Shown here in pieces: positions 46,287-49,643 of a DNA stretch of 64,000 nucleotides (the first letter of the stretch is position 1; every line of letters starts with the position of its first letter). Position numbers and translations under genes: made by a program. The stretch is taken from contig JBGURU010000042.1 in assembly GCA_045132175.1 (NCBI GenBank), positions 59,887 through 123,886 of the forward strand, in the 5' to 3' direction. The DNA is from Elusimicrobiaceae bacterium (GTDB lineage: Bacteria > Elusimicrobiota > Elusimicrobia > Elusimicrobiales > Elusimicrobiaceae). The notes below the pieces were generated by a model, which saw only the letters and a list, made by a program, of their open reading frames with translations, did not search any database and was not told where the DNA came from.

Positions 46287-49200
46287 TTATTTTAGTATGT
46301 CACCCAATAATTTAACATAAGCACTGGGTTTTTTAATGTCTTCAAAATTAATAGTCCCGCAACGAATCATCATAACTTCTAACATATGTGTTAAAATATC
46401 ATAGAAATTATCCCTGATCGGTTCTTTTACTTCCATCAAAGAGGGTCCTAAAATAACTGCGCCTTTTAACCCTTTCACATCACATATATTTGCAATCTTA
46501 AATGCTGCAGAAATAATATGTTCAGTTGAATATGCAGATTTTAAAGCATAGTTAAAACCGCCTTTTATACCCAATTCTTTTGCCGCCTCTTGGGAAGCAA
46601 AAGCAACCCAGCGGAATTTATCTATTTGTGAAGAAGGGAAGAAGAATCCGAAATTACCCCATTTATCGTCACTATTTTTTGCAAGGACAGTTATATCTTC
46701 AAAATTTTTCTTGACAATTTCACTTTTTTCATTTTCGCCGTTAGTACCGGTCATTATTTTTAAAATTTCTTCATTTGATATCTGTTTGATATCACTGCTT
46801 TCAATACGGCGGGCTAAAACTTTTATTCTCTTAACATCTCTGGATACATCTCCTAAAGATTCACATCTGTTATAAAAGAACTCTTGCATTTGATTTTCTG
46901 TCAATGCTATATTCGCACCTGAAACAATCTTATTTGCCAAACGGGCAAAATGGTTTTTATTAGGAACTTTAAGTTCTGTAATTGTACCCATAGCAAATTT
47001 AAAATTAACAAGTTCTTCAAATCTCTTTAAACTTTCCGGAGGATATTTTGAAGATAATATTATTTGCTTTTTATTTGCTAAGAAATCATTTAAGAGTTTG
47101 GAAATATACTCCCTGTTATGCTCATTTACTGCAGTTAAGTGTATATCATCTATTATCAAAACTTGAATATTTTTGAAAAAATTATCTAATTTTTCTTTTT
47201 GACCCTGCTCAAGAGAATATTGTATACCCCTGGATAAACGAACACCGTTAGTAAATAAAATTTTTGATTGCGGAATTTTTTTTGAAATTTCATAACCCAT
47301 AGCATGTAAGAAATGTGTTTTACCTGTACCGCCTACCCCTTGCAATAAGAACGGATTATTTGTGGTTCCTAAATTATCTAAAGTAGCCATTGCCATAGCG
47401 TGGGCAAAACGCATAGGAGAAACATCCATATTTGCAAATGTATACGTAGGAATTAAAGGCATTTCTATAGGATAATTTCTGTATTTTGTCCCTTTAGCGG
47501 GAGCAGCAATATGTAAAGTATGATCTATCTTTTCACCCCTTACAGAACTATCTTTTTTAGAAGTGAAATCTTTCCTCATCATATTTGACAGATTCCTTTT
47601 TTGTTCCTCTATTTTTTCTTCCTTGTTTTGTCCTTGCATAATATTTTTCTCCTTTTTTAAAATCTGTTGTTGTGTTTTAGAAGGTGTTTCTTCTTTTTCA
47701 GGTATCTCTTTTACGGAAATATTCTGCTTTTTTATCTCAGGTAAAACTTTTTCTTCATAAGTAATTATACCTTTTCCATTGGCTTTAACCGCTTCCACAA
47801 AAGAACTAAAACCTTCTTTATTCTTTGAACTTTCCTGTTTTTTGTTTTCTTCCTCTTTTTTAATAATTTCAGTTTTCTGTTTTACAACAATTTCTTTTAT
47901 TGTTTCTTTTTTTTCTTCTGAATCTTGTTGTTTATCAGAAGGAATATCTTTCTTTGTTTCCAAAAAAGATAAGGTATCTTGTTTTTCTCTTTCCTCAAAA
48001 ACACTATCTATTTCTGCAGTGTTTAAATCAGCAGAATTTTCTTCTTTTTCTGAATTTTGTGGAACTGATAATTGTTCCTTTTCCACTGTATTTGTGTTGC
48101 CAAAAATATTTTTTATATTTTCCGTGTCTTGAACGGGGGATATGTCAGCTTTCCTTTTTTCTTCCTTTAAATTTGTTTCTGAGATATTTTGTTGTTCTTT
48201 TTTAGGTAATATAGGTTTCTCCTGATTTTGTACGGGGGAAACTTTTTCTTTCTCTGTTTCAGGTTTTTGTGCCGGAACTAAAGTTTCTTCTTTTGTATGA
48301 TTTTGCTCAAAATCAATATTTTTACTTTTTGTTTCCGGTTGGTCTGCATAAAAATTATATACGGTTTCAGCAGCAAAAATATCATCAACTTGCAATTTCG
48401 CTTCTATGGGGTTAGAATAAAGATCTTCCCTCTCTTTCTTTACCGTATCTTCTATATTATCTTCAGATAATAAGCCTTTTTTTACTATTATTCCGCTTCC
48501 TAAATCTTGGAAAGGATTTTTAGGTAATTCTTTTTGGGTTTCTTGTTTTTGTTCTTCCTGCGTTTTTTCTTTTATCTCTTTTTGGACTTCTTTTTTTAAT
48601 TCTTTTGCTGCTTCTTGTGCCTGTTTAAAGAGTTTAGAAGAACCTAATTTATTTTTAAGGCCTTTTGCTTTTTTAAATAAAGAATGCTTTTCTTTAGGAT
48701 TTTCTTCTTGTTGTTCTTGTTGTTTAGTATTTTCCTGTTCTACTTTTAATGATTCCTGTTCCTTTGTAGAAATACTATTTTCTTGATTTACACTATCTTC
48801 CGGTTTTTCTTTTTTAGATTTCAAAATATTTTTAAATTTACCTAAAAAACCGCCAAAGATATTACTTTTTTTAGAAGGTGTTTCAATACTTATAGCAACA
48901 TCTTTCATTTCTTCCGGTGAAAAAGCAACAATAGTTTCATTTTCTTCTTCTATTTTAGATAACGGTTTATTTTCTTCTTTGACCTTTGGAATTTCATTAT
49001 TTGGAATATTGTTATTTTGATTAATTGATTTTTCTTCAACGTTTTGTTTAATATCAGACAATGTTTTTTCTATTTTTAGAGATTTATCATCTAACACTAT
49101 TTCCGTCATTTCGTCATTAGACAAATTATGATTATAAGTTAAGTCCTTTAATTCTGTTGCAGGCTTTTCTTGTGATATCGGAAAGCCTGTTTCCGCGAGT

Positions 49201-49643
49201 TTCAAGCTAGGCATACCGTCGTTTGATACAGAATCCAAAGAAGGCAAAGATACTTTTTGTGTACTATCTTCGGAAAAGATATCAGAGGCCTTATATTCTT
49301 TTTTATTTTCAGTTGTTTTTTCTTTTACTTTAGGAAGATTTTCCGTATCAGCTAAAGTTATTGTTTCTGTTTTAAGGGGATTAGCAAATGTTTGTGTGAC
49401 ACCCACAACGGAAGAAGAAATAAAGTCAATTCTACTTCTGAGTTTTTCTAACATAGAATCATCGGTAATACCTGATAATTCAAAGACATAATCAAAACCT
49501 TTCATCTGTAATTTTGTTAATTTGCAAAAAGCAGAAAGTTTATCTTCTATTTCTTTACAACCAGCTTCATCTGCTTTTAACAAAAGCAAAAAGACAGAGT
49601 TCGGTGTCACAGTATTTTCCCTTATTTCATAACCGCTTATCAT
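46287..49643 (-). CDS. Giant DnaA-domain-III-like AAA+ protein with ~640-aa K/E/Q-rich low-complexity region and unknown N- and C-terminal domains
   Basis: ...YTFANMDVSPMRFAHAMAMATLDNLGTTNNPFLLQGVGGTGKTHFLHAMG...VLIIDDIHL...QIILSS... aligns with the window's own DnaA ([16 protein letters not shown]...[22 protein letters not shown]...LLLDDIQFL...QIVLTC). No domain IV motif. Confidence 0.7.
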   Translation of the reverse strand: MISGYEIRENTVTPNSVFLLLLKADEAGCKEIEDKLSAFCKLTKLQMKGFDYVFELSGITDDSMLEKLRSRIDFISSSVVGVTQTFANPLKTETITLADTENLPKVKEKTTENKKEYKASDIFSEDSTQKVSLPSLDSVSNDGMPSLKLAETGFPISQEKPATELKDLTYNHNLSNDEMTEIVLDDKSLKIEKTLSDIKQNVEEKSINQNNNIPNNEIPKVKEENKPLSKIEEENETIVAFSPEEMKDVAISIETPSKKSNIFGGFLGKFKNILKSKKEKPEDSVNQENSISTKEQESLKVEQENTKQQEQQEENPKEKHSLFKKAKGLKNKLGSSKLFKQAQEAAKELKKEVQKEIKEKTQEEQKQETQKELPKNPFQDLGSGIIVKKGLLSEDNIEDTVKKEREDLYSNPIEAKLQVDDIFAAETVYNFYADQPETKSKNIDFEQNHTKEETLVPAQKPETEKEKVSPVQNQEKPILPKKEQQNISETNLKEEKRKADISPVQDTENIKNIFGNTNTVEKEQLSVPQNSEKEENSADLNTAEIDSVFEEREKQDTLSFLETKKDIPSDKQQDSEEKKETIKEIVVKQKTEIIKKEEENKKQESSKNKEGFSSFVEAVKANGKGIITYEEKVLPEIKKQNISVKEIPEKEETPSKTQQQILKKEKNIMQGQNKEEKIEEQKRNLSNMMRKDFTSKKDSSVRGEKIDHTLHIAAPAKGTKYRNYPIEMPLIPTYTFANMDVSPMRFAHAMAMATLDNLGTTNNPFLLQGVGGTGKTHFLHAMGYEISKKIPQSKILFTNGVRLSRGIQYSLEQGQKEKLDNFFKNIQVLIIDDIHLTAVNEHNREYISKLLNDFLANKKQIILSSKYPPESLKRFEELVNFKFAMGTITELKVPNKNHFARLANKIVSGANIALTENQMQEFFYNRCESLGDVSRDVKRIKVLARRIESSDIKQISNEEILKIMTGTNGENEKSEIVKKNFEDITVLAKNSDDKWGNFGFFFPSSQIDKFRWVAFASQEAAKELGIKGGFNYALKSAYSTEHIISAAFKIANICDVKGLKGAVILGPSLMEVKEPIRDNFYDILTHMLEVMMIRCGTINFEDIKKPSAYVKLLGDILK

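What the first reader, a model, noticed from the sequence alone, without database searches (positions are those of the whole stretch)
46287..49643. 1118-aa DnaA-domain-III paralog lacking the DNA-binding domain, fused to a huge K/E-rich disordered region, ~12 kb from the origin
Residues ~745-930 align clearly with the genuine DnaA encoded at 61599-62957. The aligned segments are YTF..(F/M)...P..RFA...NNPF.....G.GKTH.LHA.G, the Walker B motif (V/L)LIDDI, and sensor I (QI.L(S/T)). The box VII arginine region (RLSSRL in DnaA) reads EELVNF. There is no domain IV helix-turn-helix signature (PRQIAMYL...DHTTV). Upstream are an ~90-aa globular N-domain and ~640 aa of E/K/Q/N-rich low complexity. On the plus strand, nt ~47.4-49.4 kb are correspondingly pyrimidine-rich. 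Downstream is an uncharacterised C-terminal domain of ~190 aa. The gene sits in a tight minus-strand array with a lipoprotein gene, comM, dprA, topA and xerC. Hda- and DnaA-like regulators are normally small. A giant, probably ATP-binding but arginine-finger-less DnaA relative is not something I recognise. It could be a replication or chromosome-organisation factor, or a scaffold unrelated to replication.
Basis: partly seen in the sequence, partly recalled or inferred. Interest (0 to 1): 0.7.

Follow-up and report, generated by a model that had tools for sequence, protein, structure and literature searches.

The report
DnaA-derived adaptor protein of Elusimicrobia
This gene is real and belongs to an undescribed protein family, found only in the phylum Elusimicrobiota, that evolved from the replication initiator DnaA by swapping its DNA-binding end for another domain and, in gut species, gaining a very long floppy linker; its job is still unknown.

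Summary
The 1118-aa ORF (46287-49643, minus strand) is intact and aligns end to end with six independent homologues. Residues 728-965 are a DnaA-type AAA+ module (Pfam Bac_DnaA E 1e-26; 30% identity to the window's own DnaA). There is no DnaA_N and no domain IV.

It belongs to a family of about 160 clusters. Every named member is from Elusimicrobiota. The layout is fixed: a novel ~85-aa N-domain, a linker of 13-2091 aa, the AAA+ module, and a novel flavodoxin-like C-domain.

Across 121 members, Walker A Lys and Walker B DD are invariant. DnaA's arginine finger (Lys here), R281, sensor II, sensor-I Asp and ssDNA-binding residues are not conserved. Rare basal members keep all of them, which shows descent from DnaA.

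The giant K/E-rich linker and its short conserved motif are limited to the gut Elusimicrobiaceae clade. Most other lineages flank the gene with a GAF histidine kinase and a partner carrying a probably related C-domain. Canonical DnaA and DciA are also in the window.

Most likely it is an ATP-binding, hydrolysis-poor adaptor or switch, not an initiator, Hda or helicase loader. Its target is unknown. It is a new variant of a known kind.

The parts
46287..49643 (-). Whole ORF, 1118 aa plus stop ('X')
   Evidence: ORF listing. End-to-end collinear alignment with six homologues at 43-58% identity. Only three tiny tandem repeats in the DNA.
49389..49643 (-). N-domain (ND), residues 1-85, beta-beta-alpha-beta-beta-alpha
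   Evidence: AF2 model pLDDT 86, pTM 0.74. No PDB fold match (best E 0.02, TM <=0.53). No PDB sequence match. A local HMM finds it at the N-terminus of almost all full-length family members.
47529..49388 (-). K/E-rich disordered linker, residues ~86-705
   Evidence: Composition, charge and purine bias. Linker length across 97 complete family members is 13-2091 aa, median 203.
48342..48389 (-). Conserved short linear motif VDDIFAAETVYNFYAD (residues 419-434) inside the linker
   Evidence: The only strongly conserved island in the linker. The pattern (D/E)DIFxAxT... is found only in members with linkers of 313 aa or more.
48474..48518 (-). Second, clade-restricted conserved island NPFQDLGSGIIVKKG (residues 376-390)
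   Evidence: Full-length alignment of close relatives.
47463..47531 (-). Conserved segment just before the AAA+ module (KIDHTLHI...YRNYPIE, residues 705-727)
   Evidence: The '(K/R)W(S/P)xE' part is family-wide. 'IDH(S/T)' is specific to Elusimicrobiaceae.
46959..47462 (-). DnaA-type AAA+ core (IIIa), residues 728-895. Walker A at 47313-47339, family-specific TxGxRLSRG at 47226-47252, Walker B at 47139-47162, sensor I at 47037-47066, degenerate box VII at 46995-47021.
   Evidence: Pfam, NCBIfam, PDB and BLASTP. Residue census. Coordinates.
46749..46958 (-). AAA+ lid (IIIb), residues 896-965; sensor II Arg replaced by Gly
   Evidence: TIGR00362 alignment runs to residue 965. E. coli R334-equivalent column.
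46290..46664 (-). C-terminal alpha/beta domain (CTD), residues 994-1118, four beta-alpha units
   Evidence: AF2 pLDDT 89, pTM 0.85. Only generic flavodoxin/Rossmann-like fold matches: Argonaute MID and lumazine synthase, mostly TM ~0.5 (best 0.61). No PDB sequence match. An exhaustive profile search finds it only at the C-terminus of this family.
45174..46277 (-). Conserved downstream neighbour: 367-aa lipoprotein, 9 nt after X
   Evidence: Synteny across the phylum. A profile matches an FlgP/LPP20-like putative lipoprotein (E 6e-6) and weakly LpoB. FlgT_N matches in 2 of 10 members.
39351..45173 (-). comM (43629-45173), dprA (42517-43629), topA (40219-42507) and a xerC-type recombinase (39351-40238): same-strand downstream array
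   Evidence: Pfam. Same order in L001 and L090.
49663..51049 (-). Upstream same-strand genes deoC (49663-50304) and tpiA (50291-51049)
   Evidence: ORFs. deoC-X linkage is kept even in the deepest lineages.
60055..62957 (-). Context, not part of X: canonical dnaA (61599-62957), dnaN (60346-61455), dciA (60055-60345) and a DnaA-box cluster at 61493-61611
   Evidence: DnaA scores 457 bits on TIGR00362, above the cut-off, with all three Pfam domains. DciA PF05258 scores 33.4 bits against a cut-off of 24. DnaA boxes.

Best explanation
X is a genuine housekeeping-type gene of an Elusimicrobiota-specific family that descends from DnaA.

Shown:
- The family keeps DnaA's overall plan: a small N-domain, a variable linker, an AAA+ module and a C-terminal domain. 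Both end domains are different folds, and the helix-turn-helix is gone.
- The nucleotide-binding pocket is under strict selection.
- The residues DnaA uses to act on a neighbouring protomer (arginine finger, R281, L290), to couple hydrolysis (E204, sensor II R334, D269) and to hold single-stranded DNA (V211, K243, R245) are not conserved.

Inferred:
- X therefore binds ATP but hydrolyses it poorly or not at all.
- It does not build DnaA-like filaments on DNA.
- It works as a nucleotide-loaded adaptor or switch. Its outputs are protein contacts made by the N-domain, by short motifs in the linker and by the C-domain, whose invariant residues sit on one edge of the sheet like a ligand or partner pocket.
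- In most lineages it is co-transcribed with a membrane-anchored GAF histidine kinase and with 'Y', a disordered protein carrying a probably paralogous C-domain. I therefore place it in a regulatory module.
- In the gut clade that includes this window, kinase and Y are absent from the locus. The linker has grown about tenfold and gained a new motif, acting as a long tether.

Likelihoods:
- Descent from DnaA and the architecture: ~0.95.
- 'ATP-binding adaptor, not initiator, loader or Hda': ~0.6.
- That the regulated process is replication initiation through DnaA: ~0.25.
For: Identity:
- Bac_DnaA is the best Pfam hit for X and for 20 of 20 family members.
- DnaA structures are the best PDB sequence hits, E 2e-23 against 5e-5 for DnaI.
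- In a crude NJ tree, family plus DnaA plus Hda separate from DnaC in 200 of 200 bootstraps, and E. coli Hda does not group with the family.
- Basal members P0213, P0217 and L069_X keep R281/R285/D269/L290/R334 (L069_X has Asp at the R281 column). Their C-domain is homologous to the crown C-domain, hhalign 98.9%, E 3e-17.

Pocket kept, trans residues lost (121 members):
- Walker A Lys 121/121 and Walker B DD 121/121.
- The R285 position is R 38, K 38, Q 20, S 15.
- R281 is Arg in 3 members. At the R334 column the family is mostly G (66) and S (27).
- E204 becomes V/I/P, V211 becomes Q/D, D269 becomes K/L.
- Family-specific invariants are NRFAHA and TxGxRLSRG.

Not an initiator or loader:
- There is no domain IV.
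- Canonical DnaA and DciA are present in the window.

Housekeeping and vertical inheritance:
- Every named member is from Elusimicrobiota.
- Synteny is conserved phylum-wide.

Regulatory module:
- The histidine kinase gene starts from a 4-nt overlap with the X stop to about 60 nt after it in most loci (farther in L052 and L069), in 17 non-gut loci.
- The Y C-domain against the basal C-domain gives hhalign 88%, E 3e-6.

Adaptor features:
- The linker ranges from 13 to 2091 aa, and the short motif occurs only in long-linker members.
- X has no TM segment and no clamp-binding motif.
Against: - Nothing here measures ATP binding, hydrolysis or any interaction.
- Lys or Arg persists at the finger position in 63% of members, including this one, so some trans-activation cannot be excluded.
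- Kinase and Y are absent from the locus in the very clade the window belongs to. The signalling inference may therefore not transfer.
- Conserved gene order could be inherited order rather than functional coupling.
- The Y-to-CTD homology is only moderately supported, and it is not significant against the crown CTD.
- The AAA+ module itself was not modelled.
- The NJ tree is crude.
Confidence: 0.45

Rival explanations
1. X is a DnaA-directed regulator that co-assembles with DnaA. Its ATP-loaded face accepts DnaA's arginine finger, but it offers no working finger itself. It would cap or poison DnaA oligomers at the origin, like the degenerate subunits in ORC or the clamp loader.
For: X descends from DnaA and keeps the ATP pocket while losing the finger. 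This is the asymmetry such a cap needs. From established knowledge, other DnaA-related AAA+ proteins (Hda, DnaC) act on DnaA through AAA+ to AAA+ contacts. In this window X lies 12 kb from the DnaA-box cluster.
Against: No interaction data exist. The DnaA inter-protomer residues R227 and L290 are also not conserved. Origin proximity is not seen in the two relatives whose flanks were annotated. The conserved partners in the operon are a kinase and lipoproteins, not replication genes.
Confidence: 0.2
2. X serves the cell envelope or natural transformation rather than replication or signalling, because it is always co-located with a FlgP/LpoB-like lipoprotein and with comM-dprA.
For: X-lipoprotein-comM linkage is kept across the phylum, 9 nt apart here. 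The lipoprotein profile matches FlgP/LPP20-like lipoproteins and weakly LpoB.
Against: X has no signal peptide or TM segment and the lipoprotein is exported, so direct contact is unlikely. dprA-topA-xerC is a widespread housekeeping array (established knowledge). Nothing in X resembles known competence proteins.
Confidence: 0.15
3. X is still an active DnaA-like oligomeric ATPase on DNA, for example a second initiator or restart factor, with the C-domain as a new nucleic-acid-binding module.
For: Basal members keep the full DnaA catalytic set. The best fold matches of the C-domain include Argonaute MID domains, which bind nucleotide 5' ends. The window protein has Lys at the finger position.
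Against: In the crown group, including X, sensor II, R281, E204 and the ssDNA-binding residues are all replaced. The MID matches are weak, mostly TM ~0.5 (best 0.61), and shared with lumazine synthase, so they show a generic fold only.
Confidence: 0.08
4. X is an Hda-type inactivator of DnaA or a DnaC/IstB-type helicase loader.
For: It is an AAA+ protein of the initiator clade without domain IV. There are weak hits to IstB, Hda and a phage DnaC-like family.
Against: Scores are far below cut-offs: Hda 37 against 195 bits, IstB 47 against 200. There is no clamp-binding motif. The arginine finger that both families need is not conserved, although E. coli Hda and DnaC both show Arg in that column. 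DciA, the helicase operator, is encoded in the window and is typical of the phylum (PMC5109545).
Confidence: 0.05
5. The ORF is an assembly artefact, a fusion or a decaying pseudogene.
For: The region is low-complexity and purine-biased. In two relatives (L001/L002, L054) the gene is found as two ORFs or a shorter ORF.
Against: The ORF aligns collinearly end to end with six independent homologues. The fused form is present in cultured Parelusimicrobium proximum and Elusimicrobium simillimum. Only tiny tandem repeats occur. The domains are strongly conserved.
Confidence: 0.02

Closest known systems
DnaA (bacterial chromosomal replication initiator), domain III
   Same: AAA+ fold of the initiator clade. 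Shares the 'P-x-Y-T-F-x-x-F ... N-x-x-A' lead-in, Walker A GxGKTH, Walker B with DD, an insertion of the same length where DnaA has its initiator-specific motif, and a lid subdomain. The overall four-part plan is the same: small N-domain, variable linker, AAA+, C-domain. Basal family members keep every catalytic and finger residue.
   Different: No DnaA_N fold and no helix-turn-helix domain IV; both are replaced by novel domains. In the crown group the arginine finger, R281, sensor II, D269, E204 and the ssDNA-binding residues are not conserved. TIGR00362 scores 117 bits against a cut-off of 344. X coexists with a normal DnaA.
Hda / HdaA (regulatory inactivator of DnaA)
   Same: A DnaA-derived AAA+ protein that has lost domain IV and acts, in Hda's case, as a regulator rather than an initiator.
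   Different: Hda is ~230 aa. It has an N-terminal beta-clamp-binding motif and an essential arginine finger. X has neither, and has an N-domain, linker and C-domain instead. TIGR03420 scores 37 bits against 195. E. coli Hda does not group with the family in the tree.
DnaC / DnaI / IstB helicase-loader and transposition AAA+ proteins
   Same: Same AAA+ clade. Weak profile hits over the Walker A to sensor I core.
   Different: Much lower scores than for DnaA. These proteins keep an arginine finger and have helicase- or transposase-binding N-domains. The window already encodes DciA.
Degenerate AAA+ subunits inside initiator and loader complexes (clamp-loader delta/delta', some ORC subunits)
   Same: A working analogy only: paralogues of an active AAA+ ATPase that keep part of the site (pocket or finger) and serve as structural or regulatory subunits.
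   Different: No homology beyond the AAA+ fold. No evidence that X joins a complex with DnaA.
Sda-KinA checkpoint of Bacillus subtilis (replication status signalled to a histidine kinase)
   Same: A conceptual parallel for the ancestral X-histidine kinase pairing: a replication-linked protein acting on a sensor kinase.
   Different: Sda is a 46-aa helical hairpin unrelated to DnaA. The parallel is recalled from the literature and was not tested here.

Membership tests
Pfam PF00308 Bac_DnaA (DnaA-type ATPase domain) | Profile score above the gathering threshold, as the best-scoring AAA+ family | tested here: met
   94.3 bits against a cut-off of 23, residues 733-889. Best family in 20 of 20 members scanned.
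DnaA (TIGR00362 equivalog) | Full-length score above the trusted cut-off | tested here: not met
   117 bits against 343.9. The window's true DnaA scores 457.
DnaA | C-terminal helix-turn-helix DNA-binding domain IV (PF08299) | tested here: not met
   No hit at E<=1. The C-terminus models as an alpha/beta domain.
DnaA | N-terminal domain I (PF11638) | tested here: not met
   No Pfam hit. The modelled N-domain has a beta-beta-alpha-beta-beta-alpha order and no DnaA entry appears among the Foldseek matches listed.
DnaA | Box VII arginine finger (E. coli R285), R281 and sensor II R334 | tested here: not met
   X has K, L and G at these columns. Family: R285 column is R 31%, K 31%, Q 17%, S 12%. 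The R281 column is Arg in 3 of 121; the R334 column is mostly G/S.
DnaA | ATP-binding Walker A Lys and Walker B Asp-Asp | tested here: met
   121 of 121 members at each position.
DnaA | ATP-dependent oligomerisation on DnaA boxes and ssDNA, and origin unwinding | not testable with these tools
   Needs biochemistry. The ssDNA-contact residues V211, K243 and R245 are replaced.
Hda (TIGR03420) | Score above cut-off | tested here: not met
   37.3 bits against 194.8.
Hda | N-terminal beta-clamp-binding motif (QL[SD]LF or QLxLxL) | tested here: not met
   A regex scan of the whole protein finds none.
Hda | Conserved arginine finger | tested here: not met
   E. coli Hda has Arg in the R285 column and X has Lys. 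The column is variable in the family.
DnaC / IstB (NF038214, PRK12377, PF01695) | Score above the NCBIfam cut-off, or best-scoring family | tested here: not met
   46.9 bits against 200 and 25.8 against 389. Pfam IstB_IS21 at 38.7 bits is well below Bac_DnaA at 94.3. DnaC is the outgroup to family plus DnaA plus Hda in 200 of 200 bootstraps.
CheY-like receiver domain (considered for the C-domain because of the neighbouring kinase) | Five beta-alpha units with a conserved phospho-acceptor Asp after beta3 and acidic residues after beta1 | tested here: not met
   The model has four beta-alpha units. The invariant residues are G, P, Y and F with no conserved Asp. No receiver appears among the Foldseek matches listed.
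Anti-phage defence or phage-encoded proteins | Significant match to PADLOC or PHROGs families | tested here: not met
   PADLOC gives only 13.9 bits at E 0.007. PHROGs gives only a generic DnaC-like AAA+ hit at E 1e-8.

The most novel reading that the evidence does not exclude
X is a phylum-specific, DnaA-derived pseudo-ATPase subunit that docks through its ATP-loaded face onto DnaA. It would couple replication initiation to a signal read by its novel C-domain, ancestrally through the adjacent GAF histidine kinase and the Y partner. That would be a bacterial counterpart of the degenerate subunits of ORC, and a new kind of link between replication and two-component signalling. In gut Elusimicrobiaceae the kinase link has been replaced by a very long, motif-bearing tether.
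Probability: 0.15. Interest if true: 0.8.

Novelty: new variant of a known kind. Interest (0 to 1): 0.55.

Why it matters
DnaA-derived proteins known so far (Hda, DnaC/DnaI) are small and each solved a specific problem in controlling or completing replication initiation.

Here a whole phylum carries a third, independent derivative. It has two new terminal domains. Evolutionary intermediates still look catalytically like DnaA. The crown group has kept only the nucleotide pocket.

That makes it a natural case study of how an initiator ATPase turns into a non-catalytic adaptor. It is also a candidate for an unknown layer of cell-cycle or signalling control.

Cultured species that encode it (Parelusimicrobium proximum, Elusimicrobium simillimum) make this testable.

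Databases currently label it 'DnaA/Hda family protein', 'ATP-binding protein' or even 'chromosomal replication initiator protein'. The last label is wrong and could mislead origin or initiator annotation in these genomes.

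Tried and rejected
1. C-domain related to a known family. Rejected: no Pfam hit, no PDB sequence hit, and only generic flavodoxin/Rossmann-like fold matches.
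2. N-domain related to DnaA domain I or any solved fold. Rejected: the best Foldseek E is 0.02 and there is no PDB sequence hit. A word-indexed profile search found only six short family fragments.
3. The upstream Y protein's C-domain homologous to the crown C-domain. Not significant: hhalign 2%. It only reaches 88% when bridged through the basal C-domains.
4. Y's N-terminal amphipathic motif captured as the linker motif of gut X. Rejected: a motif HMM gives no consistent hit.
5. Y or the kinase encoded elsewhere in the window. Not found.
6. Clamp-binding motif or TM segment in X. None found.
7. Defence-system or phage origin. No support.
8. Exact copy of X in the contig index. Not on record, so the sample of origin is unknown. 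The nearest genomes are Elusimicrobiaceae MAGs at 82% and 78% identity over the C-terminal 391 aa.
9. Literature. Three full-text searches found no description of this family.
10. Tree building. The first attempt timed out and an intermediate one had numerical errors. Only searches are used, and they are a crude NJ analysis.

Full report
**Observation**

The minus-strand ORF 46287-49643 encodes 1118 aa from an ATG.
- BLASTP against the window's own DnaA (61599-62957, also minus strand) aligns residues 727-895 with DnaA 110-279. Identity is 30%, E 2e-17.
- Pfam Bac_DnaA matches residues 733-889 at 94 bits (cut-off 23). There is no DnaA_N or Bac_DnaA_C hit.
- TIGR00362 aligns residues 665-965 to model positions 77-339 of 437, that is domain III with its lid, at 117 bits against a cut-off of 344. 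Hda (37 bits) and IstB/DnaC models (47 and 26 bits) score far lower.
- The best solved structures by sequence are DnaA proteins (E 2e-23). DnaI follows at 5e-5.
- The linker (about residues 86-705) is 16.6% K and 15.8% E. Its coding strand is 64% purine.
- It contains only three tiny tandem repeats.
- A cluster of five DnaA-box-like sites lies at 61493-61611, between dnaA and dnaN.

The finger position is Lys, not simply absent. The 'C-terminal domain' is the AAA+ lid, a spacer and a ~125-aa domain.

**The gene is real**

X aligns collinearly over its full length with six independent homologues of 923-1296 aa at 43-58% identity. The same fused form is present in the cultured Parelusimicrobium proximum and Elusimicrobium simillimum.

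**The family**

A search with the C-terminal 427 aa returned 65 full or partial relatives, all named Elusimicrobia or Elusimicrobiota. True DnaAs appeared only at E 1e-21 or worse.

A profile of the C-domain was searched exhaustively against 1.84 billion representatives.
- It found 160 clusters at E<=0.001.
- The domain is always at the C-terminus.
- Local HMMs show that nearly every complete member has N-domain, AAA+ and C-domain in that order.

A scan of one genome per GTDB species found about 50 loci covering most or all of the AAA+-CTD query. Apart from one Elusimicrobia locus (L069), the hits from L055 on covered only the AAA+ part and came from other phyla; they look like ordinary DnaAs. 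The loci covering the C-domain too were all in Elusimicrobiota, apart from three bins with generic or evidently wrong names. Every one of twenty distant representatives that carries a source name is also Elusimicrobiota. The literature library holds no description of the family.

**Anatomy**

N-domain:
- It models with pLDDT 86 as beta-beta-alpha-beta-beta-alpha.
- It has no significant fold or sequence match in the PDB.

C-domain:
- It models with pLDDT 89 as four beta-alpha units.
- Its best fold matches are Argonaute MID domains and lumazine synthases, mostly TM ~0.5 (best 0.61). That indicates a generic flavodoxin/Rossmann-like fold.
- It has no PDB sequence match.
- Its invariant residues P23, Y58 and G86-P87 fall at the C-terminal ends of strands 1, 2 and 3 of the model. 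That is the usual ligand or partner site of such folds. This is an inference.

Linker:
- Across 97 complete members it ranges from 13 to 2091 aa, median 203.
- Linkers over 300 aa, and the motif (D/E)DIFxA(E/K)Txx(D/N)(F/M)(Y/F), occur only in the gut Elusimicrobiaceae clade. In X the motif is at residues 419-434.
- The 'huge disordered region' is therefore a clade-specific expansion of an inter-domain linker. It sits where DnaA has its variable domain II.

**Active-site census**

Columns were numbered on the real E. coli DnaA fetched from NC_000913.3. 121 family members were compared with 20 DnaAs, E. coli Hda and E. coli DnaC.

| E. coli DnaA residue | State in the family (121 members) |
|---|---|
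| K178 (Walker A) | K in 121 |
| D235, D236 (Walker B) | D in 121 at each |
| S268 | S in 119 |
| R285 (arginine finger) | R 38, K 38, Q 20, S 15; K in X. Hda and DnaC both show R, so the column is aligned reliably |
| R281 | mostly L/A; an earlier census gave Arg in 3 |
| R334 (sensor II) | mostly G/S; an earlier census gave Arg in 3 |
| D269 | K/L/A |
| E204 | V/I/P |
| V211, K243, R245 (ssDNA contacts) | Q/D, N/T, Q/H |
| L290 | W |

The family has its own near-invariant signatures. These are NRFAHA before Walker A, TxG(V/I)RLSRG where DnaA's initiator-specific motif begins, and GW after box VII. The nucleotide pocket is thus under strict selection. The elements for acting on a neighbour, for coupling hydrolysis and for holding ssDNA are not.

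**Evolutionary intermediates**

A few basal members keep the DnaA residues.
- P0213, P0217, the deoC-linked orthologue in locus L069, and fragments P0199, P0207 and P0216 keep R285, D269, L290 and R334. P0213 and P0217 also keep R281, while L069_X has Asp there.
- They place a disordered stretch, sometimes with a zinc ribbon, between the lid and the C-domain.
- Their C-domain is homologous to the crown C-domain, hhalign 98.9%, E 3e-17.

In a crude NJ tree:
- Family plus DnaA plus Hda separate from DnaC in 200 of 200 bootstraps.
- The family, apart from P0213, is one clade next to L069_X among the DnaAs.
- E. coli Hda sits next to a chlamydial DnaA (P0070), beside E. coli DnaA and apart from the family.

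The family therefore arose from DnaA by replacement of domain IV. The crown group, including X, later lost the catalytic and trans-acting residues.

**Genomic context**

- The order (tpiA)-deoC-X-(small lipoprotein)-367-aa lipoprotein-comM-dprA-topA-xerC is conserved across the phylum.
- The lipoprotein profile matches an FlgP/LPP20-like lipoprotein and weakly LpoB.
- Outside the gut clade, X is followed by a single-TM GAF-HisKA-HATPase histidine kinase in 17 loci. The spacing in most loci runs from a 4-nt overlap to about 60 nt.
- In many of those loci X is also preceded by 'Y'. Y has an N-terminal amphipathic motif, a disordered region and a C-terminal alpha/beta domain. That domain is probably paralogous to the basal C-domain, hhalign 88%, E 3e-6, but the match to the crown C-domain is not significant.
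- The gut clade, including this window, has neither Y nor the kinase in the locus or anywhere in the 64 kb.
- Origin proximity is not seen in the two relatives whose flanks were annotated: L001 and L003 show no dnaA, dnaN or gyrB within 10 kb.
- In P. proximum the gene lies at 0.85 Mb of a 1.81-Mb chromosome. The dnaA position there was not checked.

**What it is not**

- The window encodes a normal DnaA (457 bits on TIGR00362, all three Pfam domains).
- It also encodes DciA at 60055-60345. This is consistent with the report that Elusimicrobia use DciA (PMC5109545).
- X has no clamp-binding motif and no TM segment.
- It has no defence or phage family membership.
- It is therefore not the initiator, not an Hda and not a helicase loader.

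**Most likely mechanism (inferred)**

X is an ATP-loaded, hydrolysis-poor adaptor or switch. It signals through its N-domain, linker motifs and C-domain. Ancestrally it is part of a Y-X-kinase regulatory module. In gut species it is rebuilt around a very long tether.

Whether it acts on DnaA is open. One possibility is capping DnaA oligomers with a face that accepts but cannot donate an arginine finger. I put that at about 0.2-0.25.

**Verdict**

X is a real, conserved, phylum-specific DnaA derivative with a new architecture. It is a new variant of a known kind. Its function is unknown but testable in cultured species.

Noticed in passing
L003/L004, L035, L037-L041, L045-L049, L051, L052, L069, L088, L090 (e.g. 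L090 11852-13810; L003 12034-13998): Outside the gut clade, the X orthologue is followed directly by a single-TM GAF-HisKA-HATPase histidine kinase. In L003 the start overlaps the X stop. No response regulator is seen nearby. The kinase is absent from the locus in all gut-clade relatives and from this window.
   Followed up: partly
L003 8298-9980; L038 5222-7363; L045 6433-7470; L088 1689-2804; L090 7763-9994: A partner gene 'Y' sits directly upstream of X in many non-gut lineages. It has a conserved N-terminal amphipathic motif (~ESIDEILSDLNGLLNKMP), a long disordered region and a C-terminal alpha/beta domain. That domain is probably paralogous to the basal form of X's C-domain (hhalign 88%).
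   Followed up: partly
P0213 (641 aa), P0217 (583 aa; L088 2804-4555), L069 7557-9026, fragments P0199/P0207/P0216: Basal family members keep most or all of DnaA's arginine-finger, sensor II and sensor I residues. They place a disordered stretch between the AAA+ lid and the C-domain; P0213 and P0199 have a CPYCGG...CYKC zinc ribbon there. Whether those genomes also have a canonical DnaA was not checked.
   Followed up: partly
L001 8385-9947 and 10001-11491 (same in L002); L054 7635-9167: In some Elusimicrobium-like contigs the gene appears as two ORFs. One of 520 aa holds the N-domain and linker. One of 496 aa holds the rest of the linker, the AAA+ module and the C-domain. They are separated by a 54-nt AT-rich spacer in a different frame. 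This could be a genuine split or a sequencing error.
   Followed up: partly
window 45174-46277 (-): The 367-aa lipoprotein 9 nt downstream of X has no Pfam family. Its family profile matches an FlgP/LPP20-like lipoprotein (PDB 9hmf, E 6e-6) and weakly LpoB. In other lineages it sits with GNA1162-like and CsgG/LpoB-like lipoproteins.
   Followed up: partly
window 60055-60345 (-): A 96-aa ORF between dnaN and gyrB is a DciA helicase operator (PF05258, 33.4 bits against a cut-off of 24). The local order is dnaA-dnaN-dciA-gyrB-gyrA, with no recF.
   Followed up: yes
window 61493-61611 and 63039-63067: Five DnaA-box-like 9-mers (0-1 mismatch to TTATCCACA) cluster in the dnaA-dnaN spacer, and two more lie upstream of dnaA. 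The region has 26% G+C. It is a likely oriC, possibly bipartite.
   Followed up: partly
window 20902-25468: A low-G+C stretch (29-33% against ~38% elsewhere) holds a dCache-GGDEF-EAL protein (20902-23208) and a 517-aa ORF with no Pfam match (23236-24789).
   Followed up: no
window 36297-38423 (-): A 708-aa ORF with a GTG start and no Pfam match at E<=1e-5 lies downstream of the ROK kinase gene. In L001 the gene at this position is 729 aa and has a weak LptC hit.
   Followed up: no
P0118 (2568 aa, Logan contig of 49.5 kb): The most extreme family member has a 2091-aa linker between the N-domain and the AAA+ module.
   Followed up: no
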